DNA from: Candidatus Omnitrophota bacterium
GTDB taxonomy: Bacteria > Omnitrophota > Gorgyraeia > JABMQH01
Assembly: GCA_037143495.1 (NCBI GenBank)
Contig: JBAWYO010000001.1
Coordinates: 1-40,052 of the forward strand
Direction: 5' to 3'
Length of the DNA stretch: 40,052 nucleotides
A program made the translations under genes and the position numbers. Under the pieces are notes generated by a model. It had not been told where the DNA came from. It saw nothing but the letters and a program-made list of their open reading frames with translations, and did not search any database. Below, piece by piece: positions 20 to 35,279 of this stretch (the first letter of the stretch is position 1; each line of letters begins with the position of its first letter).

Positions 20-979
20 ATGAGATTTTTAGCAAAATACCTCACTATTTCGATACTCATCGTTTGTATCGGCAACCAGATGGTGTGGGCCCAAGGCGAT
101 ATGCTCCGTCCCCTGGCGGCCCTGGAACCCAAGCCGACGCCGCGGCAAAACGGCGATGATATGACCGATGACGTTATAGCGCTTTTCAGGCGGCGTCTTG
201 CGGGCGCGCCGGCTACCCTGGCAGCGTTACAACAGCGTATGGCAGAATTGAAAATGCGTGTGATCAAGGGTAACCCGTTTTCCCGCCAACAGCTCGAGGG
301 CGCGATCCCGATGCCTACGTCGCCGATCATAACCGCGCTTTCCTACGCGACCGATCGACGGGGCGCGGTGACCGGGGTTAGCCAATCATGGCTCTACTGT
401 ACGATCGACGACCTTGATGCGCGCCCCGATGCTTATCTGGCATTCATCCATGAGATCGTCGAGTCATCGATCCATGTGGGCACGCTCATCGAGCTCGCTC
501 GACAGGGGCGAGTCATTAATAACCAGACATCTCAGCAGCTTATACAACTCGACTATCCGCATGCGTTGGCGCATATAGAGGTCTTTGAACATTCGGACGA
601 ATATTCTTTTAATAACGATGAGCGTTTTCTGAACGCGCTCATGTTCTTCAGGTCCGCGCTCAGGTTGATCCAGCAGGAGAGGTTTACGACGCTCTTCCAA
701 ATATTCGGCAATACCGCGCAAAAGGCACACTACAATGCCATGCTAACAACGCTGGTAGCATTTCTTAATGAAGGGGCGGGGAAAAAAGTTATAGGACTTG
801 TTGTCAAGTGTGAGGATCCGCGTCAGTACAATAATGATACGCGGCGTTTTATAGCGTCAGAAAAAGATGACATTAGAGCGGGAGCAGAGCGCTTTTTACA
901 ACTCTGGAAAGGGCCGAGGCCCTCTCCAGGTCTTGCCATACCTCGCCAGCGCGCCCGCGACACCGGATCCGCTGTTTAG
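20..979 (+). CDS. hypothetical exported protein (signal-like N-terminus + LRPLA motif)
   Basis: 319-aa ORF with GAGAGG RBS just upstream of the ATG. N-terminal K/R + hydrophobic segment ends VWA-QG, then LRPLA at nt 104-118. No family recognised. Confidence 0.7.
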   Translation: MRFLAKYLTISILIVCIGNQMVWAQGDMLRPLAALEPKPTPRQNGDDMTDDVIALFRRRLAGAPATLAALQQRMAELKMRVIKGNPFSRQQLEGAIPMPTSPIITALSYATDRRGAVTGVSQSWLYCTIDDLDARPDAYLAFIHEIVESSIHVGTLIELARQGRVINNQTSQQLIQLDYPHALAHIEVFEHSDEYSFNNDERFLNALMFFRSALRLIQQERFTTLFQIFGNTAQKAHYNAMLTTLVAFLNEGAGKKVIGLVVKCEDPRQYNNDTRRFIASEKDDIRAGAERFLQLWKGPRPSPGLAIPRQRARDTGSAV

Positions 980-995
980 TGAGAGAAAGATATGT

Positions 996-4302: not shown

Positions 4303-7300
4303 TTATATCTGCGATAATAAATAAAGCTCTGCCCTGCGCGCGAGAAACTTTACAGCTTTCAGTTTTTTGTTGGCATAATCAAATTCGGATATTGAATCCG
4401 GTTCGCCTGTTTGCGGGTTTTTGCTTTCGTGGTATACCTTGAGTATCCAGTCGTTTTCGCCTATTCTTGCGGGGACTACCACAACATTAATTCCGGGCTG
4501 TTTGCTGCCTGAGGCAAGAGCGAGTTTTTTGCTTAAAACCACACCAATGTAGATTAGCCCCCCAGATAAGGTAGTACTCTTAAACTCATTAAGTTTAACA
4601 TCTTTGCCGTCAAGTCTATCAAGTATTCGCTGTTTTCCAGGACCAGGGTAGGATTCTAATTTTTTCCCTTCATAATCAAACCTGCTATAACTGTCAGGTG
4701 CGTCTCTTGAGGGGTCTTTACCTTCCGGATATACCTTAAAAATCCATCCGTCAACTGGGTCTTGTTCGGGGACAATGGTGGCATTGACGTTTACTCGTTC
4801 GCTGCCTGAAGCAAGATAAACATCTCTACCTGCAAGCCTGCCAATGTAGATTGTTCCGTTTGCATTCGTTTTTGCTTCAAACGTTACGAGCCTAACATCC
4901 TTGTCTTCCAATCGGTCTAATATCCTCTGTCGTGCAGGTCCAGGGTAGGATTCTAATTTTTTCCCTTCATAGTCAAACCGGCTATAACTGTCGGGTTCAT
5001 CTTTTGATGGGTCTTTACCTTCCGGATATACCTTAAAGATCCATCCGTCAACAGGGTCTTGTTCGGGGACAACCAAGACATTAACGTTTGACTGCTCGCT
5101 ACCTGAGGCAAGGTCGACTGGTTTCACTGCAAGATTGCCAATATGGATTTGCCCTATTGAATTCGTTTTTGCTTCAAACGTTACGAGCCTAACATCCTTG
5201 TCTTCCAATCGGTCTAATATCCTCTGTCGTGCAGGTCCAGGGTAGGATTCTAATTTTTTCCCTTCATAGTCAAACCGGCTATAACTGTCGGGTTCATCTT
5301 TTGATGGGTCTTTACCTTCCGGATATACCTTAAAGATCCATCCGTCAACAGGGTCTTGTTCGGGGACAACCAAGACATTAACGTCAGGTTGTAAACTACC
5401 TGCGGCCATGGTAAGTTTTTTGCCTGCAATACTGCCAACATAGATTTGCCCCTGAGCTCCCGTTGTAGTCTTAAAAGCTGCGGGATAGGCAGTGATACCA
5501 TTAGCCTTTAGAGTAAGCAGCATCATAAATCTCAATTCACTCCATGGTAACTTTTCAAGCACGCTTCTAACGTTCATCCCAAGTTTATGTATTTCAGGGA
5601 GTGTGCTGTTTTCCATATCTATGAGTCTCATGACTATTGCTTGTCGGATGGCAGGATCGGCAATATCTTGCGCATTTTGGGCTATAAATCTATGTATCGT
5701 TTCGCAGGCCGCGTTTACATGGGCCATCGGTGTAATCCTGGGCGGGATTATCTTAAGCAATAAGGCATATCTACTGCGCAAATTCTGACGTATGCTTCCC
5801 GGCTCTGCATTCGCGTCCAGGCGCCCTGATATATAACTCCTCTCCTCCCGTTCAGGGAATAATTGAGCAAGGAGCCTGTTTCTGTTTGCGATGAGTTCTA
5901 TGGCGCCTATTAATTCCGTAGAAGACATGGAGGCCTGTAAGGTGGCATGTGATGTCTCGTTTTCCAAAACCTTTGCCGCCGCAAGACCGTTTGTGTTTTT
6001 AAGGGAGGTGTATAACGCGCTAAAGCGGGACACCTCTGTGGCCAGGAATTGTTTATTCGCCTTCCTGGAAAGAAGATCAAGTATAAAGCGGGCATTCCTC
6101 TCCGAGAGAAGCAGAAGCGCCGACGGCCTGCGCTCGAAAATCTCAAGCTGCTGATAAAATTCTGCAGACGGCCTTACCTTTGTCTGCTTCAATTCCTGCG
6201 GCCTGATGAGATCCCTGTCAAGGCCTCCCCAGTCCTCATGTAAGGCTATAACCGCCGCTATATGTTCGGGCCTTGGCTGTGCAAGAGGCTGGCCTGTATG
6301 CCCTTTCATTAAAGGAGGCACCCTCAATCCGAATCCAGGTACCATAAGTAGCTGTTTTTTTACATCTTCCCTTCTTTCAGGTTCGATGTCGTGCATCTTA
6401 CGCAGGATTATCACCCTGAACCGTTTCTTAATCATCTGTTCTATTTCGCCGATAACCTCGGGTTCGTAATTCTCGCGAAAGAGGCTCATTGCTGCCGGAT
6501 CAGGAGAGAATCCTGTTTGCGCATTCTCAACCAGCTCAAAGCCGGCCTCGTTGATATTGGTTAAAAAATCTGGGGTGACATCAACAGTCGCCGGAAGGGT
6601 AATAGCAAATTCAGCTTTTGGTTTAAGGACCCTGTTTGCTTCAAGAAGGGTAGCGACAAAATCTTCTTTTTTCAGATGATGGATACTGAATGAGGCCGAG
6701 ACAAGGCCAAAGGCCCCTTCATCGGGCAGGTCCTGCTGTAAGTCTGCCATCGAGGCACAGAAGCCGTTCTGGTTAACCGCGACATCTCTCATGTCCTGAC
6801 GCAGCTCTATGTCGGTGACAGGGGGCTGAGTTACGCCAGACTCCTGCAATGCCAGATATAGGGCGCTTGTGCCCGCGCCCAGGTCCAGCACCTTGTCAAT
6901 TGAGCCGTCTATAATAGCTGGCGCATACCTGTCGGCAAGCCAAAGGACTGAAAGCCAGTCAACGGTGATCTTTAGATATTTGGCAAATTGTTCAGGGTCA
7001 GTCCTGTTGCCTCCCCATTCCAGGCGCGATGATCTTAAAAACGTAAGAGGGGCAAGGCACCGCGACATATCACACATCTCGACATCAGTAAGGGTCTCTG
7101 CTTCTAAACGCTTTGCGAGTTCCGCGAGCCTTTTACATGATTTGCTGCTTTCAAGAAGGGTAATCCTTTTCTGCTCTATCTGTTCAACGCTTTGTCCGCG
7201 AATGCGTATCTGACTGAGCTTATGCGATAAGGTTTCGATCATGGGTATATCTTTGTCTCCGATATCTGTTTTTCGGGCAGTTAAAGCACTGAAGTGTGTA

Positions 7301-7809
7301 CTTTCATCAGCAGTTAAAGCGGGAGTAAGGTAGCCCTGGTAACGGATAAGAAGTCTTAGGCGTTCTCTCTGGTCGGAAAGCGTTTCTCTTTTCTGGCGCA
7401 GTAATTCTTCTTTGGCAGTTTCGCTTTCTATAAAGCCATGGGTCACCACATCGTCCTGACCTATGCGCATCTCATGCCCATTTTTTATATTTACAACAGT
7501 AAATACCCATTTGATCCTATGATTACCAAGACTGCAGGTTACACCATCCGGATCATAAGCACAAGAGACGCCACCTGTGTTGGTATGCTTTAACTCCCAC
7601 TCTGCGCGAGCCGCTCTATAATCCTGCTGCGGATCAGAGCATTCTCTTATAAATGTTGCCTCTGTCTTAACCTGTTCGCTAGATTCACGTTCAGCAAATG
7701 ATATTGCACGTAATGAATCGCGCGTAATCAACCCGCCCCATGCTCCATTTTGGGACACAAGGTTTAAAATTAAAATTGTACTTAAAAACCCGGCTATTTT
7801 TTTTCTCAT
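4303..7809 (-). CDS. large exported protein with class I SAM-dependent methyltransferase domain and four C-terminal 99-aa repeats
   Basis: 1168 aa with a signal-like N-terminus (MRKKIAGFLSTILILNLVSQNGAWG) and LRAIS-FAERE motif (nt 7713-7699). MTase motifs VLDLGAGTS, FGLVSASFSIHHL and LEANRVLKPKAEF lie at about nt 6520-6957. The repeats are unrecognised. Confidence 0.85.
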   Translation of the reverse strand: MRKKIAGFLSTILILNLVSQNGAWGGLITRDSLRAISFAERESSEQVKTEATFIRECSDPQQDYRAARAEWELKHTNTGGVSCAYDPDGVTCSLGNHRIKWVFTVVNIKNGHEMRIGQDDVVTHGFIESETAKEELLRQKRETLSDQRERLRLLIRYQGYLTPALTADESTHFSALTARKTDIGDKDIPMIETLSHKLSQIRIRGQSVEQIEQKRITLLESSKSCKRLAELAKRLEAETLTDVEMCDMSRCLAPLTFLRSSRLEWGGNRTDPEQFAKYLKITVDWLSVLWLADRYAPAIIDGSIDKVLDLGAGTSALYLALQESGVTQPPVTDIELRQDMRDVAVNQNGFCASMADLQQDLPDEGAFGLVSASFSIHHLKKEDFVATLLEANRVLKPKAEFAITLPATVDVTPDFLTNINEAGFELVENAQTGFSPDPAAMSLFRENYEPEVIGEIEQMIKKRFRVIILRKMHDIEPERREDVKKQLLMVPGFGLRVPPLMKGHTGQPLAQPRPEHIAAVIALHEDWGGLDRDLIRPQELKQTKVRPSAEFYQQLEIFERRPSALLLLSERNARFILDLLSRKANKQFLATEVSRFSALYTSLKNTNGLAAAKVLENETSHATLQASMSSTELIGAIELIANRNRLLAQLFPEREERSYISGRLDANAEPGSIRQNLRSRYALLLKIIPPRITPMAHVNAACETIHRFIAQNAQDIADPAIRQAIVMRLIDMENSTLPEIHKLGMNVRSVLEKLPWSELRFMMLLTLKANGITAYPAAFKTTTGAQGQIYVGSIAGKKLTMAAGSLQPDVNVLVVPEQDPVDGWIFKVYPEGKDPSKDEPDSYSRFDYEGKKLESYPGPARQRILDRLEDKDVRLVTFEAKTNSIGQIHIGNLAVKPVDLASGSEQSNVNVLVVPEQDPVDGWIFKVYPEGKDPSKDEPDSYSRFDYEGKKLESYPGPARQRILDRLEDKDVRLVTFEAKTNANGTIYIGRLAGRDVYLASGSERVNVNATIVPEQDPVDGWIFKVYPEGKDPSRDAPDSYSRFDYEGKKLESYPGPGKQRILDRLDGKDVKLNEFKSTTLSGGLIYIGVVLSKKLALASGSKQPGINVVVVPARIGENDWILKVYHESKNPQTGEPDSISEFDYANKKLKAVKFLARRAELYLLSQI
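4306..5493 (-). repeat. four in-frame tandem repeats of 297 nt (99 aa); two units share a 224-nt perfect identity (4864-5087 = 5161-5384)
   Basis: Read directly. Unit consensus: VPEQDPVDGWIFKVYPEGKDPSKDEPDSYSRFDYEGKKLESYPGP.RQRILDRL.DKDV. Confidence 0.9.
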
Positions 7810-9348: not shown

Positions 9349-10581
9349 ATGGCATATAAAATAACATATCTGCATACGGAAGGAACGCGCATCGTTGATG
9401 AGCGCGGAAAGCGCATTGTCCTCAAAGGCGTGAACCTTGGCGGTTGGCTCATGATGGAAGGATACATGTTCGGCGGCCGCAACATTTCTGAGCACGAGCT
9501 GCGCGCATCCGTCGGGAAAGAGCTGGGTAAAGAGGCGCTCACGGAGTTTACCAGAGCGTTTCGCGATACCTTCATCCGCGAGGATGATATCAAGATCATA
9601 AAAAGCTGGGGCGCTAATTGCATCAGGATACCGTTTAATTACCGCCTGATAGAATGTGAGGAGGGGGCGCGTGGCGTCAACAGGGAGGGGCTCTCGTATC
9701 TTGACCGTGCCGTGAAGTGGTGTGAGAAGCATAATATCTATTGTATCCTTGACATGCACGCTGCGCCGGGCGCGCAGAACTGCGCGTGGCACTCCGACTC
9801 CTACGGGAAGGCAGCGTTGTTCACCAGCGAAGCGAATAAGAGCCGCTACGTACGGTTGTGGCGTTTCTTAGCGGACCGTTACCAGGGATCCGCCGCTGTA
9901 GCCGGATATGATGTGCTGAATGAGCCCGTCGTCGGGCTCCGGGAAGAGGGAGAATTAAAGGAACTTTATGGCAGAGTCGTACAAGCGATACGTAGTGCCG
10001 ACAAAAAACATATCATATTTCTTGAGGGCAACATCCTTGCCCAGCGGATCAATTTTCTGGGCAAACCCGCCGACCACAATACGGTGTACAGCATGCATGC
10101 GTACCCGTCGCTCGATTTTACCCACAATTTCGAAATAGGATTACAATATCCGGGTACGGCGCATGGTATCCGATGGGATCGCGATAGCCTCGAACGTCTC
10201 GCTGCGACGTTTACATCTTTCATGAACAAACACCAGGTGCCGCTCTACGTGGGTGAGTTTGGTGTGAATGCCCGTGGCGGCCATGCCGGAGAAGTGCGGT
10301 GGGTGGAGGATATCATCAGCATCTTCACTGAGAATCATTTGAGCTGGACGTACTGGACGTACAAGACGATCGCGAATTACGCGTTCCCCGATGGTATATA
10401 CAGGTATCTTGCCAATCCCGCGTGGGTAAACAGGCAGGGGCCGGTATCGGGATGCGAGACCTTTGCCGGCTTGTGGCCAACGGCAAAGAGCAAGATGACA
10501 CGCTCGTGGCGGACGGAGAATTTTGTCCGCAATGATACGATATACGCTGTATTGAGAAAGTACTTCTTGCGGGTGTTGTAG
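9349..10581 (+). CDS. glycoside hydrolase family 5 (cellulase-like)
   Basis: GVNLGGWLMMEGYM, IRIPFNY, LDMHAAPGAQN, DVLNEP (acid/base Glu) and YVGEFG (nucleophile Glu) are GH5 hallmarks. No signal peptide seen. Confidence 0.85.
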   Translation: MAYKITYLHTEGTRIVDERGKRIVLKGVNLGGWLMMEGYMFGGRNISEHELRASVGKELGKEALTEFTRAFRDTFIREDDIKIIKSWGANCIRIPFNYRLIECEEGARGVNREGLSYLDRAVKWCEKHNIYCILDMHAAPGAQNCAWHSDSYGKAALFTSEANKSRYVRLWRFLADRYQGSAAVAGYDVLNEPVVGLREEGELKELYGRVVQAIRSADKKHIIFLEGNILAQRINFLGKPADHNTVYSMHAYPSLDFTHNFEIGLQYPGTAHGIRWDRDSLERLAATFTSFMNKHQVPLYVGEFGVNARGGHAGEVRWVEDIISIFTENHLSWTYWTYKTIANYAFPDGIYRYLANPAWVNRQGPVSGCETFAGLWPTAKSKMTRSWRTENFVRNDTIYAVLRKYFLRVL

Positions 10582-10780: not shown

Positions 10781-12262
10781 ATGCGGAAACGATCTATCCT
10801 CCAACTGTGTACGATAGTACTCATGACCGCCCTCTGTTGCGCGGCGAATGGTGGGTCTATAGCCCATGGTCAATGCCCATCGACCGTCCTGCGGCCGGTC
10901 GCTCATGATCAACGGGAGGAGGCCCTTGAGATAGAGTCGATAGAATGGAATCCGTACTTCCCGTTAAGCGAAGAGCTTAAAAAAAAGATCATAGCTGTTA
11001 TCACCTGGCAGCTGCGGCCTGATTTTTCGCACAGCCGTTCAGGATATCTCCGGTTGCCGGAGGTGCTGGCTGTCGCGGTCGAAACAGCGGCGGGGCGCAA
11101 AACATTCGAGATACCACTTTTGAAACTTAAGAATATCGGTGATTTCCACGATGCCAGTAACCCTACAATGCCAGGCGCCGACGTGCCCGGATATCTGCAG
11201 CACGAGGTATTCCCCGAGGTCCATCCTGAGATCGACGCCGAGTGCTATCTGCATCCGGTGATGGTCCCGCCCATTCCGCGCGGCAGCGACCGCTACCGGT
11301 TCAATCTTCGTGAATACGCGCACACCGGTGAGGCACTCTTTCGCGGTGCGGATGTTGGCATCCCGTTCGCGGTGATCAAATACAAGGGGCGCGCTTTTCG
11401 CGGCGACCAGATCGGCGCGCTCGTGCTGGGCTGTTTCGAAGAGCAGGACAGGCGTTTTGCGCATCTGTTCAATGGCGCTGTGCTGGAGCTGGACCACATT
11501 CAACAGCCGGTATTGACCCTCGGCGAGTATGCCCGGTCGGTGGTCCCGCACCCGGATGATATGGGCAGTATATTGTCGTTCATGAGAGAAGGGATCGGCG
11601 CCTGGGGGGACGCGACGCGCGATCTGACCAATATAGGCGTCTTGCACGCTTCCACGCACCCGTTCAATGTTTCCTATGTCAAAGGACGAATGTACTATCA
11701 TGATTTTATTGAGACAAAGTGGAATCGCGATTTTACCCCGGAACAAGCGTTCCTCTATCAGCTGACCTGGCCGATCACGCACGCGATCTGCGGATTGGAG
11801 CTCTTGCTGCTGCAGACCGATCTGGGGCCGCCGCTGATCATGATGTACCACAATGCGGGAGAAAATCCATACAAGGATTGGCTGCGCCGATATTTTCGGG
11901 ATGCTGATGTGCGGACATTGCGGGTCATCGATCACGTAGCGGATGAATTGTTCGATAAGGCGGTTGATGCGCTGATGAAGTACGGCCAGACGGGGATATC
12001 ATTTGAGCAATATGCCCAGGAACGGGAGATGACGTATATGATCGCGTCCGTGGGGCTCTTCCCGGCGCTTGAGTCAATACAACAGCATCTGGGGTTGCGC
12101 GCGCCATACTCACAGGAAGAATACATACGGCGATTTGCGCTTTATAAACAGGAATCACTCGAGCTTGCCAACAGGTGGAGGGGTGAGCATGGACTTCCGC
12201 CGCTCGTTACGCAAACGGTTGCCGATTTCTATCGTCAGAACGTGTTCGACGATGATGTGTGA
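10781..12262 (+). CDS. hypothetical exported protein (LRPVA-HDQREE motif)
   Basis: 493 aa with signal-like MRKRSILQLCTIVLMTALCCAANG. LRPVA at nt 10889-10903. Possible degenerate kinase-like motif at nt 11642-11713. The antisense ORF 11039..11935 is judged spurious. Confidence 0.7.
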   Translation: MRKRSILQLCTIVLMTALCCAANGGSIAHGQCPSTVLRPVAHDQREEALEIESIEWNPYFPLSEELKKKIIAVITWQLRPDFSHSRSGYLRLPEVLAVAVETAAGRKTFEIPLLKLKNIGDFHDASNPTMPGADVPGYLQHEVFPEVHPEIDAECYLHPVMVPPIPRGSDRYRFNLREYAHTGEALFRGADVGIPFAVIKYKGRAFRGDQIGALVLGCFEEQDRRFAHLFNGAVLELDHIQQPVLTLGEYARSVVPHPDDMGSILSFMREGIGAWGDATRDLTNIGVLHASTHPFNVSYVKGRMYYHDFIETKWNRDFTPEQAFLYQLTWPITHAICGLELLLLQTDLGPPLIMMYHNAGENPYKDWLRRYFRDADVRTLRVIDHVADELFDKAVDALMKYGQTGISFEQYAQEREMTYMIASVGLFPALESIQQHLGLRAPYSQEEYIRRFALYKQESLELANRWRGEHGLPPLVTQTVADFYRQNVFDDDV

Positions 12263-12307: not shown

Positions 12308-15124
12308 ATGATTAAAAAGAAAATAATTCATATTTTTGTACTGTGGGCGCTCGCGCTCTCGTTCTTATTTTTCGGCAACGAAGAGCTATCGTCGCGACCG
12401 ATAGCGGTCGCACAGGTCTGCTGCGCGCTCAGACCGGTCGCCAATAGCGAAGCGGCGCCTGCGCTCAGTCCTGATATCCTGACTCTTCCCGAGAGGATCA
12501 TCCGGGACGGGGTTCTTGCTCAGGACGCGAAGAGGCTTTTCGGCAGCGTCGATAGATTTGTTGCTGTTCTTCGTGATCCGACCGCGATCGATGAACGCAG
12601 GGAAGCTGGTGCGTCATTTTTGGCGGAGGCCGGCGTTCTCGCGGCTCGCACGCTGCAAAGCGTTCCGATCTGCGGGGACATACCTGTAGGTGATCATGGC
12701 GATTCGCGCGTGTTGTGCGAGCGGTTTTTGGAGGCGGTAGCGCTGCGAACCGGGACCCTGGAGGCGCGGCTGGCTGACCGGAGACTCTACCGGACTGATC
12801 GCGCGGACAATCTGGGAGCGTTGGCCGTTGAGTTCGGCGTTGAGCCGCTTCTCGTTCATTATCTTAATATGAGGTATAGCGGCATGACGATATTGGGAGA
12901 TAACGCACAGCTTCTTTTTACCCGTGAGGGCAAATACCGCAAGGTCGAAGGTTTTCTTGCCGACAAACTCTTTTTTTCAACGCGCAAAGTTTTCCTGGGA
13001 GAGTCGCCTTATGTATATAGCGCCCGCACCGGAAAGATCTACTATTACGGCAAGCCTTTGGATTTTGGGTACCGGGCGCACGCGTTCCAGGATGAATCGG
13101 ACAATTGGTATTTCAAGGAGGTTTGGGGACCGAATGGTCCGACGGGCGAAGTCGACGTGCGGACACTTGTCGTTAATTTCAGGAATTTTTGCAACAAGCC
13201 CTGCGCTTTTTGCTGGCGCGCATACCGGGAGCAGACGGAAGCCGTCGGTTTGCAGCAGATGGCCTTACGAAACCTCTCGGTCGATGACGGACTGGCCCAG
13301 ATAGCCGCCGCGCACGGCGTCGAAGTCTTTGGGCTCATCGAACGGATATCGGTCATGGAAGCGGGATTCCCCTCCGAGGAGCTGGAGGTCGATTTCCTGG
13401 TGGAGCTGATCGAAAAACTCAAAGCGCGGGGGTTTAAAGGGAAGATCACCCCGTTTACGTCATTTCTTCGCTCGCCCGCGTCATTTGACCGGTTGATCGC
13501 CAGCGGCTATTGCATGGACCAGTGCCTCTTCCCGATGGAATGTTTTACAAGGCGTAATGAGGTGCTCGGTGAGCGCAAACGCTGCACGCTTGAGGAAGCA
13601 TTTCAGCGTATGGAAGTGTCCCTGCGGTATTATCAGGACGTAAAAGCGTTCCTGCTTATCGGCCTGGCTGATGACCTGGAAGCTATCAGGCGCCACCTGC
13701 CCGAGATGCGCGCCCGCGGTCTGGGTGTGCAATTGAGCATGTATTCGGCGGTCCTGCCCCGGCAGAAGGATCTTTATTCGCGCGAACTTGTTGCCGATGA
13801 GAAGAATAACGGTCACATCCGCTTTTTGCTGCGCGCCGCGCGGATCGCTTTTGCCTACGGCGTGTCGTGTCCCGAAGGGTCCGTCGTTAACGGCATCTGG
13901 CCCGCCGGCGCGAACTCGCTCGTGCATCCCGACAGTATCCTTCTTATGCCCTCTGAGGCTGATGAACGTGATCCCCAAGAGGCGCTTGCACAGCGGAGAG
14001 AAACTCTGGCTAAAGTCGTCGCGACGGGAGGATTTGCGCCGATCGCCGGTTTTAATGCGGTCAGCTGGTGGAATGAGAGCAACCCTGACGGCTGGGAAGG
14101 GCGCCCCCTGACCGTCGCGCGCGCGGCCGGTGATCCCGTCGTCCAGAGCAATGTGATAGCCTGGACCGCAGCGCGCTCTAACGCCGCGGTGGTTTCGACG
14201 ATGATGGACCTGACGTATCAGCAGGAAGCCATTTTACTGGCGATGGGCAGACCCGCGCCGCTTCTTAACTATGACAATGGCGCTCCACAGATCCGAGGGG
14301 TGTTGGCGGGGTGGATGGAGATCGATTGGGATCAACAGCCGGTACCGGATGTGAGGACCTCCGGAAGGATACCGGTATATGCTGAAACGGTCAGAGCGCT
14401 GAAAAAAAGGTTCGGCTCCCCAAAGCCAGTCGCAGCATTCGTCCAGGGGCCTTATTCTGTCGCGACCGGGTTGCTTGGCGAAGACGCGCTCGTAGCGCCT
14501 CTTGAGCAACCCGAAAAATTTGCTGCTTTTCTCAGGTATCTCAACAGAGTCAATACCGCGATCATCGAGTATTTTGCCGAAAGCGGCGCCGATATAATTG
14601 CGTTCCCGGATCCGGTACCGACGGCGAATCTAAGCCCCAAAATGTTCGTTACCTATAGTGTTGATCAGATGAAAGCGATCGCGGCAGAAACACATAAACG
14701 GGGCCTGCTCTTTTTGTGGCATCCGTGCAGGCCGATAAACCCTGGGCTCGGAGAAAGGATCCTGCCTGATATACTTGGCGGCGCGACCGCGGCTGAGGTG
14801 GATATTTTGAGCCTTGATGCGGCGTTTAAGATGAGCGACGTTTATGACAGGTTGCGGCAGACAGGTAATAACGCTACCGTGCTCTTTGGAAATATTGATA
14901 CGGAACACTTGATGCCGGAAGGTCCCGCAGGGGCCATTCAAGACGCCGTAACGAGTCTTGATGCCGGTATGGGATCGCGTCGCTTCCTTTTGGGGACGAG
15001 CTGCGATTGTGCGAATGTTCCCCCCGCTCATTTCCAGGCTCTCTGTAGCGCTGCGCAGCAACATAGCGCCACAGCGGGGCAGCGCTTGACGGATCAGCCG
15101 GTGGAGATGCTGACCAATGTTTAA
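12308..15124 (+). CDS. fusion protein: signal-like N-terminus + LRPVA motif + radical SAM domain + uroporphyrinogen-decarboxylase (URO-D/MtaA-like) domain
   Basis: 938 aa. CNKPCAFC (CX3CX2C) at nt 13190-13213. The C-terminal ~300 aa (about nt 14105-15052) resemble the URO-D/methylcobamide methyltransferase fold (FVQGPYSVATGLLG, AESGADIIAFPDP, LLGTSCD). Confidence 0.7.
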   Translation: MIKKKIIHIFVLWALALSFLFFGNEELSSRPIAVAQVCCALRPVANSEAAPALSPDILTLPERIIRDGVLAQDAKRLFGSVDRFVAVLRDPTAIDERREAGASFLAEAGVLAARTLQSVPICGDIPVGDHGDSRVLCERFLEAVALRTGTLEARLADRRLYRTDRADNLGALAVEFGVEPLLVHYLNMRYSGMTILGDNAQLLFTREGKYRKVEGFLADKLFFSTRKVFLGESPYVYSARTGKIYYYGKPLDFGYRAHAFQDESDNWYFKEVWGPNGPTGEVDVRTLVVNFRNFCNKPCAFCWRAYREQTEAVGLQQMALRNLSVDDGLAQIAAAHGVEVFGLIERISVMEAGFPSEELEVDFLVELIEKLKARGFKGKITPFTSFLRSPASFDRLIASGYCMDQCLFPMECFTRRNEVLGERKRCTLEEAFQRMEVSLRYYQDVKAFLLIGLADDLEAIRRHLPEMRARGLGVQLSMYSAVLPRQKDLYSRELVADEKNNGHIRFLLRAARIAFAYGVSCPEGSVVNGIWPAGANSLVHPDSILLMPSEADERDPQEALAQRRETLAKVVATGGFAPIAGFNAVSWWNESNPDGWEGRPLTVARAAGDPVVQSNVIAWTAARSNAAVVSTMMDLTYQQEAILLAMGRPAPLLNYDNGAPQIRGVLAGWMEIDWDQQPVPDVRTSGRIPVYAETVRALKKRFGSPKPVAAFVQGPYSVATGLLGEDALVAPLEQPEKFAAFLRYLNRVNTAIIEYFAESGADIIAFPDPVPTANLSPKMFVTYSVDQMKAIAAETHKRGLLFLWHPCRPINPGLGERILPDILGGATAAEVDILSLDAAFKMSDVYDRLRQTGNNATVLFGNIDTEHLMPEGPAGAIQDAVTSLDAGMGSRRFLLGTSCDCANVPPAHFQALCSAAQQHSATAGQRLTDQPVEMLTNV

Positions 15125-15239: not shown

Positions 15240-16880
15240 TCATATGGCAATGTTGGATAGATGTGCGCTGGTGGGGGATACAGATGCGGAGGCGGGCGCC
15301 GGTACCGGGACAAGCATATTCGAAAGGCGGGCGGCCATGGTCCCGGGCGCTGTTTTTGAATGCAGGAGGTATCCCCGCGCACGTCCGGCATTGCCGACCT
15401 CAAGAGCCATGCCGGTCACATCGTCTTGTATGGCCAAAGACCGTGTCAGATCATGGGTCGAACTTATTGCAGGTGAATACGAAGAGGCATATGACGCATA
15501 AAAAACAAGCATGTTGCCGACCAGATCCATGCACCGGTCTTGATGCGAGTTTATCCTTAAAAATGCGCGCTGGAACCTCTCCGCGACCCTGAATTGCTCA
15601 CCCGTGGCCAGAGAGAAAGCAAATATCCCGCCCTCGCCGCTCCTGGTGTGTATCACCAGAAAATCGTCATTCATGATAAAGTATTCGAACTGATACTGTG
15701 CCAGATTATCGAATAAGGCCTGCGGCAGGTTGGCCGGTTCGCCCGTATGTTTGTCGAATATGGACAAAGACGGTCCGGCCTCACCATCTCCCAGCGCCCG
15801 GTTCACCGCCAGATATTTTGTGGGTGTCAGGGTGATGCTGCGCGCGACCACCTGTCGATTATCCCGGCGAACGACTTTAGCCGTGGCGGGACCAGCCAAG
15901 GCAACACGGGCCAGAGTATTACCGTCGAACTTAAAGAGTTGTGCCTCCCATTTATTATCCTCGATCGGACTGCGTGACGTTGGTAGGGGGCGCGCCGCCA
16001 CGGCGATCATGCCGTCATTCGTGACGATGATCGGGTCCGCCAGGTCCTCCATATTGACCCTGACGACCTGCCGGGCGCTCGTGCCCGTCACCAGATCAAC
16101 GACGCAGAGGTCAACATCAAATCCTTCCTCTTGCTCCACACTTTGACTGAAAAAGGCCAGGGTGTGACCGGCCAGCACGGCGCTCAACGGTTGCCGCGTC
16201 AGATAGGTTCCGACGACCTTATCTTCCCCGGTGTCCGTATCGACGATCTGCAGCCCCCTGGCGCTCTCCGCCGCACCCTCCAGATACCGGATCAGGTATC
16301 GTTCGTGCAAAAGGGTGTCTGACGGCTCTGTGACCGCCAGGAGCTTAAATTGTCCGTCGGCGGTCGTTGAGCGCAGATCAAATTCGATCATGCCGTCCGA
16401 CCGGTCGCTTGCGCTCCGGTCGGTGACCAGCAGTCTGCCGGCATTGAACTGGATAGGAGGAAACTCCGGCATATACGTCTGCGCGCCCGTTCGGTCAAGA
16501 ACGCTGCCGTCGGGCATCGTTATGCGGGAAAGGTCTATTCGGCCGATCAGCCCTCCGTCGGCAACCGTATAACGCCTGAAGATAAAATCCCCGCTTCGTA
16601 CCACCAGATACGTGCCGTCATACGTAAAAGCCGTAATGGACGGATCGCTTGCCAGGATATCCAATACCCGCTGCGGATAGGTGCCGCTCGATACTTGAGC
16701 GGATCCCCCGCTCAGGCCAAGAAGGGCGGTGGTGCGGGAACTTTCGTCAAGCGGGAGAGGGCGCAACGCCGGATGATCGGGCAAAGCGCAGGCGTGCGAT
16801 GCGCCGCTTATCATGCAGGCGGCCATAACGGATATCAGGGTAGACATTGTTATCGCATATATTCGGCTATGTGTGAGCAT
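15240..16880 (-). CDS. hypothetical exported protein (LRPLP-LDESS motif)
   Basis: ORF-track frame 15240..16979. The ATG at 16880 gives signal-like MLTHSRIYAITMSTLISVMAACMISGASHAC. LRPLP at nt 16766-16752. No family recognised. Confidence 0.6.
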   Translation of the reverse strand: MLTHSRIYAITMSTLISVMAACMISGASHACALPDHPALRPLPLDESSRTTALLGLSGGSAQVSSGTYPQRVLDILASDPSITAFTYDGTYLVVRSGDFIFRRYTVADGGLIGRIDLSRITMPDGSVLDRTGAQTYMPEFPPIQFNAGRLLVTDRSASDRSDGMIEFDLRSTTADGQFKLLAVTEPSDTLLHERYLIRYLEGAAESARGLQIVDTDTGEDKVVGTYLTRQPLSAVLAGHTLAFFSQSVEQEEGFDVDLCVVDLVTGTSARQVVRVNMEDLADPIIVTNDGMIAVAARPLPTSRSPIEDNKWEAQLFKFDGNTLARVALAGPATAKVVRRDNRQVVARSITLTPTKYLAVNRALGDGEAGPSLSIFDKHTGEPANLPQALFDNLAQYQFEYFIMNDDFLVIHTRSGEGGIFAFSLATGEQFRVAERFQRAFLRINSHQDRCMDLVGNMLVFYASYASSYSPAISSTHDLTRSLAIQDDVTGMALEVGNAGRARGYLLHSKTAPGTMAARLSNMLVPVPAPASASVSPTSAHLSNIAI

Positions 16881-17068
16881 ATAATTTTTTGTTAAACAAC
16901 GCACATGGTAAAACAGTTTAGTATAGAACCAAAAAAAATCCTTCCAACCGCCGGTTCCCTCTATTTTGCTCCTACCCAAAGTATATACTATGTCGCGCGA
17001 TTTGTCAATATAATTAAACTAAATTTTTATATTTTTACAATATATCATGAGGAGGACGCGGCTGAGCG

Positions 17069-21622: not shown

Positions 21623-21706
21623 GTTGGGCCCGTTTCTCGCGGAGGCAGATCTCCAATACAACAAAAAACCTGCAGTAAGATGCGGTACTTTTGGAAACGG
21701 ACCCGG
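21623..21706 (+). repeat. hairpin repeat family 2, long copy
   Basis: GTTGGGCCCGTTTCTCGCGGAGGCAGATCTCCAATACAACAAAAAACCTGCAGTAAGATGCGGTACTTTTGGAAACGGACCCGG. Confidence 0.85.
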
Positions 21707-21732
21707 AATCCCCAGGAGCGGTCGAGGATTAC

Positions 21733-23031
21733 ATGAACAGACATAGATTTTTTTCAGTACTTTGTTCGTTCACTCTTTTGATGGGGCCCATGAGCGCATC
21801 ATCTGTCCGGGCAAACGAACCGCGGTCTTCGGCGGAGATGGTCAATACACAGACCGCCATTGACACAAATTTTGCGACAGCGTTAACGCTTTACAAATTG
21901 GATACCGGGACCTATCCCACGACGGGGCAGGGGTTGCGTGCGTTATTGGTCAAGCCCGAGAGCGATCCTATACCCATCGGCTGGAATGGCCCTTATTTGT
22001 CCGGGGTCTATCCCGACCCTTGGGGACATCCGTATGGTTACCGATTCCCCGCGAAGCTTAATACGGGCGCTCCGGCCATGTATGATCTATGGTCCTGTGG
22101 TCCCGATGGCGTGGTAAGCGCGGATGATATAACAAATGGCGAGTGGGTGCAACGACAGCTCAATTATAAGACGCAAACCAAGCTTGACGTAAATACCCAA
22201 GAAAAAATACAGACGTTATGTACCAATATCCCGAAAACATTTCCCTATTTTCACGTCTCGCAAGTAACGGTTACCGGCGATTGGACATTTGTGATGAGAG
22301 CCGAAGGGGCAGATGCCCCGTTCCCGCTGGAACTGACTGCGGGATTGGAAAAAAGTCAGGTCTTCGAAAAGGTTAATTTTAAAACATCAGTTTTCAACGA
22401 AACCGACCCCCGGCACGCATATGCTCTTATCATAACCGGAGAGATAACCGAGAAAGGGTTATCATTTGATGCTGATGCGGTCCTGGCGGTCATAGATTCC
22501 TCGCTTAAGGAAAGCGCTATTTTCAAAAATAGACAAAAGCGCCTTCAGGATGCGCGAACGCAGGAGGATCGGCGCCAGTATCGCAGCGCTATCCAGGGAT
22601 ATGAAGGATTTCTCCGCGTTCTTGATCCGGGATCAGAGGAATTTAAAGAAACGCAGACAAAGATCCGGCAACTCAAACAAAAAGAGCAGGAAGAGGCAGA
22701 GGCGCAGAAGTGGATCAAGGCTCCTCAGGGGGGTTCCGCGCTCGACAATGCGGGTATGGCGAAAGCGCTTCAAGCACAGATCAGCCTTGATATCCGCGAT
22801 ATGCCCCTCGTTGATACGCTGAAGTTCCTGAGCATAAAAGGACGCATTCCCATGGAGTCCCTGATGCCGGTAAACGGCAGCGTGACGATGTTGGTGAACA
22901 AAACGCCCATCAAGGATGTGCTCAGCGCGATCTTACATGATAATCATCTTGCTTTTCATATCGAGAAGAGCGTTGTTTATATCATGACCGAGAATATGTT
23001 CAAGGAGCGCTATGGAAAAGATTTTCAATAA
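21733..23031 (+). CDS. exported protein with type II secretion GspG-like pseudopilin globular domain and C-terminal secretin-N0/STN-like domain
   Basis: YPTTGQGLRALLVKP...WNGPYL...DPWGHPYGYRFP...YDLWSCGPDG is the T2SS-G signature (about nt 21844-22137). The N-terminus is a Sec-like signal rather than a prepilin G-FTLIE. The last ~75 aa (about nt 22780-23007) show an STN-like pattern. ATG at 21733 chosen because the TTG at 21691 lies in the repeat. Confidence 0.7.
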   Translation: MNRHRFFSVLCSFTLLMGPMSASSVRANEPRSSAEMVNTQTAIDTNFATALTLYKLDTGTYPTTGQGLRALLVKPESDPIPIGWNGPYLSGVYPDPWGHPYGYRFPAKLNTGAPAMYDLWSCGPDGVVSADDITNGEWVQRQLNYKTQTKLDVNTQEKIQTLCTNIPKTFPYFHVSQVTVTGDWTFVMRAEGADAPFPLELTAGLEKSQVFEKVNFKTSVFNETDPRHAYALIITGEITEKGLSFDADAVLAVIDSSLKESAIFKNRQKRLQDARTQEDRRQYRSAIQGYEGFLRVLDPGSEEFKETQTKIRQLKQKEQEEAEAQKWIKAPQGGSALDNAGMAKALQAQISLDIRDMPLVDTLKFLSIKGRIPMESLMPVNGSVTMLVNKTPIKDVLSAILHDNHLAFHIEKSVVYIMTENMFKERYGKDFQ

Positions 23032-35184: not shown

Positions 35185-35279
35185 CAGGGTAGTTGTCGTT
35201 AAAGAGCGCTGCCACAAAGGGAATGTTGATTGTATTCTGAGCGGAGTTCGTCAAGAGGTTGCCGCCGTGGGAGTATAGC

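What the first reader, a model, noticed from the sequence alone, without database searches (positions are those of the whole stretch)
12308..15124. Radical SAM + URO-D/MtaA-like fusion carrying a signal-like N-terminus
One 938-aa ORF combines four parts:
- a classical n/h-region N-terminus (MIKKKIIHIFVLWALALSFLFF)
- the LRPVA motif
- a canonical CX3CX2C radical-SAM cluster motif (CNKPCAFC, nt 13190-13213)
- a C-terminal ~300-aa region resembling the uroporphyrinogen-decarboxylase / methylcobamide methyltransferase fold (about nt 14105-15052)
I do not recognise this domain combination. An oxygen-sensitive Fe-S/SAM enzyme behind a Sec-type signal lacking twin arginines is unexpected. Either the N-terminus is only a membrane anchor with an unusual topology, or the enzyme works outside the producer's cytoplasm.
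Basis: partly seen in the sequence, partly recalled or inferred. Interest (0 to 1): 0.6.

Follow-up and report, generated by a model that had tools for sequence, protein, structure and literature searches.

The report
Export-tagged radical-SAM plus methyltransferase cargo protein
A real 938-residue gene of an uncultivated Omnitrophota bacterium joins an undescribed radical-SAM enzyme to a zinc-type, MtaA-like methyltransferase between an export-like leader and a short tail, so it is one more case of this phylum's unexplained habit of putting cell-interior enzymes on proteins that look exported.

Summary
ORF 12308-15124 is intact, has no other usable start, and recurs in a second assembly.

**Parts**
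- Lys-rich signal-like leader, then LRPVA.
- A radical-SAM module. CX3CXFC is invariant in its family, and the AF2 model's top 50 PDB matches are all radical-SAM enzymes.
- A URO-D-superfamily barrel (Pfam E 2e-25). It is MtaA-like, not HemE-like. The His-x-Cys...Cys triad aligns with HxC...C in the MtaA (4AY7) sequence; these being MtaA's zinc ligands is from the literature.

**New here**
- The radical-SAM module belongs to a very rare, unnamed family: 32 relatives among 1.84 billion representatives.
- All four full-length close relatives keep a leader. Distant ~380-aa relatives have none.
- The MtaA-like part is a cassette. In the 10 other Omnitrophota genomes that hold it, it sits inside ORFs of 966-42,913 aa.
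- The two enzymes are never paired elsewhere.
- The protein carries a genome-wide two-ended tag: leader + LRP[LV][AS]xxE, and C-terminal V/I. Forty-three ORFs have it. Those with recognisable domains carry cytoplasm-type ones, whereas untagged signal-bearing proteins hit typical envelope families.

**Reading**
It is a tagged two-cassette cargo protein. Whether it leaves the cell, perhaps into a host or prey cell, or stays membrane-tethered is unresolved.

This scan has noted the same class before on other Omnitrophota DNA.

The parts
12308..15124 (+). Whole gene, 938 codons plus stop
   Evidence: The same gene was called in an independent ENA assembly, with 2 nucleotide differences within the ORF. 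The only in-frame start upstream of the conserved region is at codon 1.
12308..12373 (+). Signal-like leader, residues 1-22: n-region MIKKK, then a 17-residue hydrophobic stretch IIHIFVLWALALSFLFF. No twin arginine.
   Evidence: Direct reading. Charge is +3 before the hydrophobic stretch and net -1 after it, so the positive-inside rule predicts N-in/C-out (inference). Close homologues P0004, P0005, P0007 and P0008 all have such a leader with AxA-like sites.
12419..12451 (+). Post-leader motif CCALRPVANSE, residues 38-48. LRPVA is 12428-12442, and E is at +7.
   Evidence: It fits the genome-wide consensus LRP[LV][AS]xx[EQD][RK], found after a hydrophobic leader in 49 ORFs under the loose pattern and 43 under the strict one. 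P0004 has ALRPLTATLAEE at the same place.
12485..12787 (+). Helical extension, residues ~60-160, shared only with the close, leader-bearing relatives
   Evidence: BLASTP alignments to P0004 and P0005 begin at residues 67 and 39. Consensus in A1. Absent from the ~380-aa distant relatives.
12785..13177 (+). Family-specific N-domain of the radical-SAM module, residues ~160-290: two helices plus a beta-rich part, with motifs HYLNxRxSG, SPY and WYFK
   Evidence: Conserved across the 24-sequence alignment A2. Secondary structure of the AF2 model. No Pfam or NCBIfam match.
13175..13942 (+). Radical-SAM core, residues ~290-545. The cluster motif C295-x3-C299-x-F-C302 is at 13190-13213.
   Evidence: PF04055 is weak in the query and above cut-off in homologues. 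The three Cys are invariant. Foldseek gives radical-SAM enzymes for all of the top 50 hits; the best is lipoyl synthase at E 7.5e-6.
13943..13975 (+). Inter-cassette linker PSEADERDPQE, residues 546-556
   Evidence: It aligns with the R-S-E-x-R boundary motifs that precede the same cassette in giant ORFs of other genomes. Here the motif is degenerate.
13976..15067 (+). MtaA-like (URO-D superfamily) barrel, residues ~557-920. Candidate zinc ligands: H805 (14720-14722), C807 (14726-14728), C899 (15002-15004).
   Evidence: PF01208 E 2.1e-25. MtaA/CmuA models E 1e-16 to 1e-18. A profile of 9 cassettes hits MtaA 4AY7 at E 6.3e-20 against 1.8e-12 for the best true URO-D, with HxC and the third Cys aligned. 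H, C and C are invariant.
15104..15121 (+). C-terminal tail EMLTNV, ending in Val
   Evidence: 33 of 43 LRP-tagged ORFs end in V or I, against 160 of 1271 other ORFs (Fisher p 1.4e-20). Another tagged protein on contig C80 ends MMATNV.
10781..12262 (+). Upstream neighbour, a 493-aa orphan with the same tag: leader, VLRPVAHDQRE, end ...DDDV
   Evidence: No Pfam, NCBIfam or PADLOC family.
15240..16979 (-). Downstream convergent neighbour, an orphan with the same tag: ALRPLPLDES, end ...SNIAI
   Evidence: No family. The ENA gene call uses a later start, giving 535 aa.

Best explanation
The gene encodes a two-cassette cargo protein of the Omnitrophota class of export-tagged multi-enzyme proteins.

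**Shown**
- A Sec-type leader is followed by the LRP motif, and a C-terminal Val closes the protein. Together they form a two-ended tag shared by at least 43 otherwise unrelated proteins of this genome.
- Between the two ends sit two independent catalytic cassettes.
  - A single-cluster radical-SAM enzyme of a rare, unnamed family, with its own N-domain.
  - A barrel of the MtaA type with a conserved His-x-Cys...Cys triad that aligns with the same residues in MtaA (4AY7). These residues are MtaA's zinc ligands according to the literature. The same cassette is a bead in giant ORFs of other Omnitrophota.

**Inferred**
- The leader takes the unfolded chain across the inner membrane by Sec.
- The LRP motif and the C-terminal V/I then address it to a further route.
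- The enzymes act where SAM, a reductant, Fe-S assembly and a corrinoid are available. That is most plausibly the cytoplasm of an attached host or prey cell.
- The radical-SAM part would modify a small molecule or macromolecule by H-abstraction.
- The MtaA-like part would move a methyl group between a corrinoid and a zinc-activated thiol or similar nucleophile.
- The two parts would work independently of each other.

The stated confidence is for this whole reading, export and action outside the producer included. The architecture alone I hold at about 0.85.
For: **Architecture**

**The cassettes circulate independently**
- The radical-SAM module occurs alone (P0004, P0007), or fused to MTase + HD (P0005) or to a weak, sub-threshold PHP hit (P0008). 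It is never fused to URO-D.
- The MtaA-like cassette occurs in 10 of 400 other phylum genomes, always inside ORFs of 966-42,913 aa.
- In five of those ORFs its neighbours were scanned, and they are unrelated domains: PHP, starch synthase, GNAT, MarC, response regulator, aldose epimerase and MTase. No radical-SAM domain lies within ~1000 aa.

**Tag**
- 43 strict LRP ORFs.
- 77% of them end in V or I, against 12.6% of other ORFs (p 1.4e-20).

**Cargo contrast**
- 38 tagged proteins hit only cytoplasm-type Pfam families: RmlD, OYE, ResIII + Helicase_C, a second radical SAM, RNA-polymerase alpha CTD, sigma-70 region 4, GNAT and HATPase_c.
- 28 untagged signal-bearing proteins hit SBP_bac_5, peptidases M16 and M23, beta-lactamase, Amidase_3, LysM, BON and CBM30.

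**Topology and leader**
- The charge distribution predicts N-in/C-out (inference).
- The two giant ORFs whose N-termini I could reach, both carrying the MtaA-like cassette, also start with signal-like leaders.
- Distant relatives of the radical-SAM family lack any leader, so the leader is a derived addition.

**Literature**
Omnitrophota long proteins combine signal peptides or TM helices with metabolic domains, including PF04055. They lie next to T2SS and pilus genes, and a predatory or host-dependent life is proposed for the phylum (10.1101/2023.11.21.568195; 10.64898/2026.06.07.730766).
Against: - No experiment or transcript data.
- Sec exports unfolded chains, and no machinery is known that would load a [4Fe-4S] cluster outside a cytoplasm.
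- No delivery apparatus is tied to the tag.
- P0001's own leader lacks a good AxA site next to the hydrophobic stretch. The nearest, AVA, is 12 residues on, so it could be an uncleaved anchor.
- Its LRP motif lacks the usual R/K at +8.
- Close homologues in other lineages do not end in V or I.
- No corrinoid protein gene lies on the window's contig.
- The 2026 preprint reads the TM-only architecture (46% of long proteins), with methyltransferase and radical-SAM content, as inner-membrane-anchored with the bulk on the cytoplasmic face.
Confidence: 0.4

Rival explanations
1. Membrane-tethered cytoplasmic enzyme. [quoted passage not shown] The LRP motif and the C-terminal V/I would then serve localisation, assembly or turnover there, not export.
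For: - Both domains need cytoplasmic cofactors: an Fe-S cluster, SAM, a reductant and a corrinoid (general knowledge of the families).
- P0001 has a 17-residue hydrophobic stretch and no nearby canonical cleavage site.
- The tagged set carries only cytoplasm-type domains.
- The 2026 preprint reads the TM-only architecture (46% of long proteins), with methyltransferase and radical-SAM content, as inner-membrane-anchored with the bulk on the cytoplasmic face.
Against: - The positive-inside rule predicts the opposite orientation: a Lys-rich 5-residue N-end and an acidic flank after the helix.
- Most other tagged proteins have textbook cleavable leaders, such as ...VWA|Q...AMA|D and ...SWA|G, directly before LRP.
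- A simple anchor does not explain a conserved motif after the helix together with a conserved C-terminal residue.
Confidence: 0.3
2. Functionally coupled fusion: a new kind of cobalamin-using radical-SAM methylase. The MtaA-like barrel holds or recharges methyl-corrinoid for the radical-SAM core, replacing the Rossmann-type B12 domain of class B enzymes. This reading concerns the chemistry and is compatible with either localisation.
For: - The two domains are covalently joined by a short linker.
- The MtaA family handles methyl-corrinoids (PMC10418091).
- The genome has 13 B12-binding-domain hits. The one I opened is a B12-radical-SAM enzyme, so cobalamin is probably in use.
- Distant relatives of the radical-SAM family sit next to phosphonopyruvate-decarboxylase-like genes. 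From my own knowledge, phosphonate pathways use B12-dependent radical-SAM methylases (Fom3, PhpK).
Against: - The pair is found nowhere else. Every other member of the radical-SAM module lacks URO-D.
- None of the stretches of the nine other giant ORFs I aligned (up to ~5,000 aa each) contains this radical-SAM module. In the five scanned with Pfam, no radical-SAM domain lies within ~1000 aa of the cassette.
- No B12-binding domain lies in the protein or on the contig.
Confidence: 0.12
3. Exported to the periplasm or cell surface and acting there, either with non-canonical chemistry or as a binding or scaffold protein whose enzyme folds have lost catalysis.
For: - The leader and the predicted N-in/C-out topology.
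- The organism is presumably an anaerobe, so oxygen would not destroy a cluster outside the cell (inference from the metabolic profile in the 2026 preprint: absent aerobic terminal oxidase, incomplete electron transport).
Against: - The catalytic signatures are intact and conserved: CX3CXFC, and HxC...C invariant in 10 cassettes.
- SAM and low-potential reductants are not expected outside a cytoplasm.
- Untagged signal-bearing proteins of this genome carry the typical envelope functions, while the tagged ones do not.
Confidence: 0.12
4. Artefact: an assembly chimera, a read-through of two genes, or a decaying pseudogene.
For: - The fusion is unique.
- The genome is a fragmented MAG of 296 contigs, 86% complete.
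Against: - The frame is uninterrupted for 938 codons.
- The same ORF sits on a 10.2-kb contig from an independent ENA assembly, with 3 differences in 7.9 kb.
- The cassette boundary falls exactly where boundaries fall in the giant ORFs.
- Both ends of the tag are present on the one protein.
Confidence: 0.03

Closest known systems
Long and giant multi-enzyme proteins of Omnitrophota (bioRxiv 10.1101/2023.11.21.568195; bioRxiv 10.64898/2026.06.07.730766)
   Same: - Same phylum.
- Signal-like N-terminus followed by unrelated cytoplasm-type enzyme domains, with radical SAM among the common ones.
- The MtaA-like cassette of this gene is homologous (24-32% identity; BLASTP E 9e-13 to 9e-45) to cassettes inside ORFs of 966-42,913 aa in 10 other genomes.
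   Different: - Only 938 aa and two cassettes, with no internal TM helices.
- The R-S-E-x-R boundary motifs that bracket the cassette in several giant ORFs are absent or degenerate here.
- It carries the LRP...V/I two-ended tag. I did not find this tag in those papers, and the two giant N-termini I could read do not have it.
- URO-D-type domains are not mentioned in the 2026 preprint.
MtaA/MtbA/MtsA, the soluble methylcobamide:coenzyme M methyltransferases (PDB 4AY7; UroD superfamily, PMC10418091)
   Same: - Best solved-structure match: E 5e-9 with the single sequence and 6.3e-20 with the cassette profile.
- His-x-Cys and the distal Cys align with HxC...C in the MtaA sequence; that these are MtaA's zinc ligands is literature knowledge, not read from the structure here.
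- It scores better than any true uroporphyrinogen decarboxylase.
   Different: - Far below the curated cut-offs: TIGR01463 61 vs 235 bits, NF040654 47 vs 400.
- Fused to a radical-SAM enzyme and placed behind a leader.
- No corrinoid protein gene on the contig.
- The organism is not a methanogen.
Radical SAM superfamily single-cluster cores (lipoyl synthase, TYW1, MqnE, PFL activase, MoaA, viperin)
   Same: - CX3CXFC motif.
- Partial TIM-barrel fold. All of the top 50 Foldseek PDB hits are radical-SAM enzymes.
   Different: - Only 12-18% identity and TM-scores of 0.2-0.56 to any solved member.
- It has its own ~130-residue N-domain and a conserved E-C-F-x-R-R motif.
- No NCBIfam model fits it.
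- No auxiliary-cluster Cys motif is conserved.
Class B (cobalamin-dependent) radical-SAM methyltransferases such as Fom3, PhpK and TsrM
   Same: A radical-SAM core is combined in one chain with a domain from a corrinoid-handling family.
   Different: - There is no PF02310 B12-binding domain.
- The partner domain is a URO-D-type barrel at the C-terminus.
- The combination is not conserved.
Host-targeting motifs placed after a signal peptide: Plasmodium PEXEL (RxLxE/Q/D) and oomycete RxLR-dEER. This is an analogy from my own knowledge.
   Same: A short Arg/Leu-containing motif with a following acidic position lies within a few to ~30 residues after a cleavable leader. It marks a large set of otherwise unrelated, mostly orphan proteins.
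   Different: - This is a bacterium.
- The motif sequence is different.
- There is an additional C-terminal V/I signal.
- No processing protease or translocon is known.
- The analogy is untested.

Membership tests
Radical SAM superfamily (PF04055) | CX3CX2C motif, with an aromatic residue before the last Cys, that binds the [4Fe-4S] cluster | tested here: met
   C295, C299, F301 and C302. The three Cys are invariant in 24 family members.
Radical SAM superfamily (PF04055) | Score above Pfam's gathering threshold | tested here: inconclusive
   The query scores 18.2 bits against a cut-off of 29.5. Its homologues P0007 (42.5), P0010 (51.4) and P0005 (34.7) pass.
Radical SAM superfamily (PF04055) | Partial (beta/alpha)6 TIM-barrel fold | tested here: met
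   AF2 model with pLDDT 74.5. All of the Foldseek top 50 are radical-SAM enzymes, with E down to 7.5e-6.
Radical SAM superfamily (PF04055) | Reductive cleavage of SAM by a bound [4Fe-4S] cluster | not testable with these tools
   Needs anaerobic purification, EPR and a 5'-deoxyadenosine assay.
MtaA/CmuA corrinoid methyltransferases (TIGR01463; NF040654) | Score above the curated family cut-off | tested here: not met
   TIGR01463 61 vs 235.4 bits. NF040654 47.2 vs 400. NF004889 66.9 vs 244.
MtaA/CmuA corrinoid methyltransferases (TIGR01463; NF040654) | His-x-Cys...Cys zinc site in a URO-D-type barrel | tested here: met
   H805, C807 and C899 align with HxC and the distal Cys of the MtaA 4AY7 sequence; their role as zinc ligands is from the literature, not tested here. 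They are invariant in 10 cassettes. Metal binding itself was not tested.
MtaA/CmuA corrinoid methyltransferases (TIGR01463; NF040654) | A cognate corrinoid protein encoded nearby | tested here: not met
   None of the 13 PF02310 hits in the genome lies on the window's contig C1. The best hit is a truncated B12-radical-SAM gene.
Uroporphyrinogen decarboxylase HemE (TIGR01464) | Equivalog score and the N-terminal RQAGR substrate-binding signature | tested here: not met
   TIGR01464 30.8 vs 302.95 bits. There is no RQAGR in the protein. PDB URO-D chains score below MtaA.
Class B cobalamin-dependent radical-SAM methylases | A B12-binding domain (PF02310) in the same chain | tested here: not met
   No PF02310 hit at E <= 0.1.
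Tat-exported cofactor proteins | Twin-arginine motif in the n-region of the leader | tested here: not met
   The n-region is MIKKK. The genome does encode TatC.
Omnitrophota long multi-enzyme proteins | Signal or TM N-terminus followed by several unrelated cytoplasm-type enzyme domains | tested here: met
   The MtaA-like cassette is shared with giant ORFs. Those ORFs also start with leaders.
Omnitrophota long multi-enzyme proteins | Length of several thousand residues or more | tested here: not met
   938 aa.
Two-ended LRP...V/I tag class of this genome | Leader, then LRP[LVIMA][ASTP]xx[EQD] within ~130 residues of the start, and a C-terminal V or I | tested here: met
   LRPVANSE at residues 41-48. 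The protein ends ...LTNV. 33 of 43 tagged ORFs end in V or I, against 160 of 1271 others.

The most novel reading that the evidence does not exclude
The leader + LRP motif + C-terminal V/I is the address label of an undescribed delivery route, by which this ultra-small bacterium sends ordinary cytoplasmic enzymes into the cytoplasm of a host or prey cell.

This protein would then be the first translocated effector built from a radical-SAM enzyme and a corrinoid-type methyltransferase. It would use the victim's SAM, reductant, Fe-S assembly and cobalamin.
Probability: 0.25. Interest if true: 0.85.

Novelty: new variant of a known kind. Interest (0 to 1): 0.5.

Why it matters
Omnitrophota are abundant, uncultivated and probably host-dependent nanobacteria. 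Their puzzling long proteins string interior-type enzymes behind export signals.

This 938-residue gene is a compact and tractable version of that puzzle:
- one leader;
- one post-leader motif;
- two intact-looking enzymes whose cofactor needs (Fe-S, SAM, reductant, corrinoid, zinc) make their location a sharp test;
- one C-terminal tail.

It is small enough to express, to fuse to topology reporters and to assay. It also adds two items to the cassette repertoire of the phylum: an unnamed radical-SAM family, and an MtaA-type zinc methyltransferase cassette that recurs in ORFs of up to about 43,000 codons.

If export into another cell were shown, it would reveal a new secretion signal and a new class of effectors. 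If the protein stays inside, the signal-peptide calls on these proteins would need reinterpretation.

Tried and rejected
- **Single-sequence AF2 of the whole protein.** Useless, pLDDT 36.
- **Wider members of the close radical-SAM module.**
  - Only one other genome among 185,579 species representatives.
  - None in the JGI metagenome scan.
  - None in 400 other genomes of the phylum.
  - The profile word search returned only 5 proteins.
- **The same fusion elsewhere.** No long protein shares the C-terminal domain by word search.
- **Conserved neighbourhood.** The contexts of P0004, P0007 and this gene share nothing.
- **Named families.** NCBIfam has none for the module. PADLOC has none.
- **A stand-alone corrinoid protein.** The best PF02310 hit is a B12-radical-SAM gene cut by a contig end.
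- **Paralogues in the genome.** None for any of the three parts. This is the only URO-D-type domain in the genome.
- **A downstream alternative start.** None before codon 105.
- **Lipoprotein reading.** Rejected, because ...AQVC is not a lipobox (direct reading).
- **Tat reading.** Rejected, because there is no RR.
- **Literature.** Searches for a described LRP-type signal or for Sec-exported radical-SAM enzymes found nothing specific.

Full report
**1. Observation**

The ORF at 12308-15124 (+) encodes 938 residues without a stop.

  - The leader MIKKKIIHIFVLWALALSFLFF.
  - LRPVA at residues 41-45.
  - CNKPCAFC at residues 295-302, exactly nt 13190-13213.
  - A C-terminal URO-D-type region.
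- No other in-frame ATG, GTG or TTG occurs before codon 105. That codon already lies inside sequence conserved with homologues, so the leader cannot be trimmed away.
- An independent ENA assembly carries the same gene call on a 10.2-kb contig. It has 3 differences in 7.9 kb, two of them in this ORF: one synonymous and one N774Y. An assembly chimera is therefore unlikely.

**2. The radical-SAM part**

- In the query itself PF04055 is weak: E 0.003, 18 bits, cut-off 29.5.
- An exhaustive HMMER search of 1.84 billion representative proteins with residues 61-551 found only 32 relatives at E <= 0.001, and only 7 at E <= 1e-30, the query's own cluster among them.
- The close relatives are:
  - P0004, 567 aa, from a Candidatus Omnitrophota MAG;
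  - P0007, 566 aa;
  - P0005, 1378 aa;
  - P0008, 1285 aa;
  - one fragment.
- The close relatives are 43-52% identical to the query over about 480 residues.
- Several relatives pass the Pfam threshold: P0007 42.5 bits, P0010 51.4 bits, P0005 34.7 bits.
- A 24-sequence alignment shows the three Cys as invariant. It also shows a conserved GF-G motif, an E-C-F-x-R-R motif and a G-L-x-D motif.
- Its 50 best PDB matches are all radical-SAM enzymes: lipoyl synthase, TYW1, MqnE, PFL activase, MoaA, HemN, viperin, BioB and HydE. Identities are 12-18%.
- The fold is therefore settled, but no solved enzyme is close.
- No NCBIfam model fits the query or nine relatives.
- The module includes its own ~130-residue N-domain with motifs HYLNxRxSG, SPY and WYFK. 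In the close relatives only, a further helical extension covers residues ~60-160.
- The distant ~345-425-aa relatives start directly with the module and have no leader. The leader of the Omnitrophota-type forms is therefore a derived addition.
- Two distant members (P0036 and P0037) are each followed by a phosphonopyruvate-decarboxylase-like gene: TIGR03297 at 275 and 267 bits, cut-off 312.5. A methyltransferase or a HAD hydrolase lies nearby. This is a weak lead that the family works on small molecules.

**3. The C-terminal part**

- PF01208 matches residues 673-918 with E 2.1e-25.
- NCBIfam ranks the MtaA/CmuA-type models first (E 1e-16 to 1.5e-18), but far below their cut-offs. HemE is much weaker.
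- The best solved relative is MtaA, 4AY7.
- It is the only URO-D-type domain in the genome.
- Searching 400 other genomes of the phylum with residues 546-938 gave matches in 10. Every match lay inside an open frame of 966 to 42,913 codons.
- BLASTP shows the homologous unit spans residues ~557-905.
- In five of those ORFs the neighbours within ~1000 residues are unrelated domains: PHP, starch synthase, GNAT, MarC, response regulator, aldose epimerase and class I methyltransferase. No radical-SAM domain is among them.
- In all ten cassettes His-x-Cys (H805, C807) and a distal Cys followed by Asp or Glu (C899) are invariant.
- A profile of nine cassettes hits MtaA at E 6.3e-20, against 1.8e-12 for the best true uroporphyrinogen decarboxylase. 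All three residues align with HxC...C of the MtaA sequence. I take these to be MtaA's zinc ligands from the literature; the structure itself was not inspected here.
- The UroD superfamily is known to include zinc-dependent corrinoid methyltransferases (PMC10418091).
- The HemE signature RQAGR is absent.
- I read this as a divergent, zinc-type, MtaA-like methyl-transfer cassette, not a decarboxylase and not a member of the curated MtaA family.

**4. The fusion**

- The radical-SAM module occurs in three settings:
  - alone behind a leader (P0004, P0007);
  - with a class I MTase and an HD domain (P0005);
  - with a weak, sub-threshold PHP-like match (P0008, 18.9 vs 26.4 bits).
- The MtaA-like cassette occurs among other beads.
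- The two are paired only here.
- Gene neighbourhoods of P0004, P0007 and this gene share nothing.
- The simplest reading is cassette shuffling, not a co-evolved bifunctional enzyme.
- The junction (PSEADERDPQE, residues 546-556) aligns with the R-S-E-x-R motifs that bracket the cassette on both sides in several giant ORFs. That motif occurs 13-16 times in three ORF stretches of about 2,900 to 4,500 residues, and not at all in this genome's tagged proteins.

**5. The N-terminus in context**

- About 49 ORFs of this 1.85-Mb, 86%-complete genome carry a basic or hydrophobic leader followed within 2-30 residues by LRP[LV][AS]xx[EQD][RK]. The strict pattern gives 43.
- Most have textbook cleavage sites just before the motif, such as ...VWA|Q and ...AMA|D.
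- Seven lie in this window, three of them adjacent: 10781-12262, this gene, and 15240-16979 on the minus strand.
33 of 43 tagged ORFs end in V or I, against 160 of 1271 other ORFs (Fisher p 1.4e-20).
- This protein ends ...EMLTNV, and another tagged protein ends ...MMATNV.
- Pfam scans gave a clear contrast between the two sets.
  - The 38 tagged proteins hit only 18 families, all cytoplasm-type: RmlD/epimerase, OYE, ResIII + Helicase_C, a second radical SAM on contig C77, aldose epimerase, RNA-polymerase alpha CTD, sigma-70 region 4, GNAT, HATPase_c and HEAT.
  - The 28 random untagged signal-bearing proteins hit 54 families typical of the envelope: SBP_bac_5, M16, M23, beta-lactamase, Amidase_3, LysM, BON, CBM30 and PLD.
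- The tag therefore separates a distinct class, and this gene belongs to it at both ends.
- The genome has TatC, but the leader has no twin arginine.
- The giant ORFs of two other genomes that hold the MtaA-like cassette also begin with signal-like leaders, without LRP.

**6. How it most likely works**

Shown:
- the architecture;
- the integrity of both catalytic signatures;
- the cassette nature of both halves;
- membership in the two-ended tag class.

Inferred:
- By the positive-inside rule the body of the protein crosses the inner membrane.
- Fe-S loading, SAM, reductant and corrinoid are cytoplasmic resources. The enzymes would make sense either in another cell's cytoplasm, or only if the prediction of export is wrong and the protein is tethered on the cytoplasmic face.
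- The literature describes the same paradox for the long proteins of the phylum. It favours secretion and predation for part of them, and inner-membrane anchoring for others.

My odds:
- 0.40 for export and action outside the producer's cytoplasm. Within that 0.40, delivery into a partner cell is the main version, at about 0.25 overall.
- 0.30 for a cytoplasmic-face tether.
- 0.12 for periplasmic or surface action.
- 0.03 for an artefact.
- Independently of location, I give 0.12 that the two domains cooperate as a new kind of cobalamin-using radical-SAM methylase.

**7. Comparison and novelty**

- The kind is known: Omnitrophota multi-enzyme proteins with signal or TM N-termini (10.1101/2023.11.21.568195; 10.64898/2026.06.07.730766).
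- This scan has noted related cases on other Omnitrophota DNA.
- New in this variant:
  - the small two-cassette format;
  - the unnamed radical-SAM family;
  - the MtaA-type zinc cassette as a recurrent bead, which the 2026 preprint does not mention;
  - the presence of both ends of the LRP...V/I tag.

**8. Limits**

- No transcript, proteomic or biochemical data.
- The structural model covers residues 160-550 only.
- The tag statistics use my own ORF calls, not curated genes.
- The control set contains a few weak motif variants.

Noticed in passing
window 20-979 (+), 867-2783 (+), 10781-12262 (+), 15240-16979 (-), 35259-36212 (+); variant at 4306-7809 (-): Besides the gene studied, six ORFs of the window carry a leader followed by LRP[LV][AS]xxE, or by the variant LRAISFAERE. 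Elsewhere in the genome tagged genes also cluster: four adjacent on contig C10, and three each on C57 and C189.
   Followed up: partly
genome-wide (G000); in the window the ends of 10781-12262 (...DDDV), 12308-15124 (...LTNV) and 15240-16979 (...NIAI): LRP-tagged ORFs end in V or I in 33 of 43 cases, against 12.6% of other ORFs (p 1.4e-20). Ser or Thr at -2 is the commonest class there (13 of 35), which resembles a PDZ-ligand-like C-terminus. No recogniser was identified.
   Followed up: partly
L030, L032, L033 and L036 (giant ORFs of genomes G044, G024, G200 and G070): The motif R-[SA]-E-x-R brackets the MtaA-like cassette on both sides. It recurs 13-16 times in ORF stretches of about 2,900-4,500 residues and 4 times in a 1,019-residue one. 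It is absent from four other giant ORF stretches (L029, L031, L034, L035), from the 1,082-residue contig-truncated frame in L037, and from all tagged proteins of this genome.
   Followed up: partly
L076 7001-9371 and L078 1355-3632: Distant, leaderless members of the radical-SAM family (P0036, P0037) are each followed directly by a phosphonopyruvate-decarboxylase-like gene (TIGR03297, 275 and 267 bits). A methyltransferase or a HAD hydrolase lies nearby. This may be a small-molecule (phosphonate or sulfonate) pathway.
   Followed up: partly
G000 contig C77 (L054), 2398-codon ORF cut by the contig end: A second LRP-tagged protein carries a radical-SAM domain (CNKQCKRC at residue 108; PF04055 E 3.6e-13 within the tagged set).
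   Followed up: no
window 9349-10581 (+): A GH5 cellulase-family protein (PF00150, E 8.6e-41) has no signal-like N-terminus. Neighbouring proteins with interior-type domains or no known domain do have one.
   Followed up: no
window 21691-23031 (+): A 446-aa ORF with a T2SS pseudopilin G domain (PF08334, E 8e-22) lies 6.6 kb downstream of the tagged gene cluster. No link to the tag was tested.
   Followed up: no
L011 (P0005) and P0008: The same radical-SAM module is fused in other organisms to a class I methyltransferase plus an HD domain (1378 aa), or sits in a 1285-aa protein with only a weak, sub-threshold PHP match (18.9 vs 26.4 bits). Both proteins sit behind signal-like leaders.
   Followed up: partly
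L010 8504-11555 (contig of P0004): Two Fic-domain genes, two YjbQ-like genes and a PilZ gene lie a few kb from the homologous radical-SAM gene in the other Omnitrophota MAG. None of them carries the strict LRP motif.
   Followed up: no
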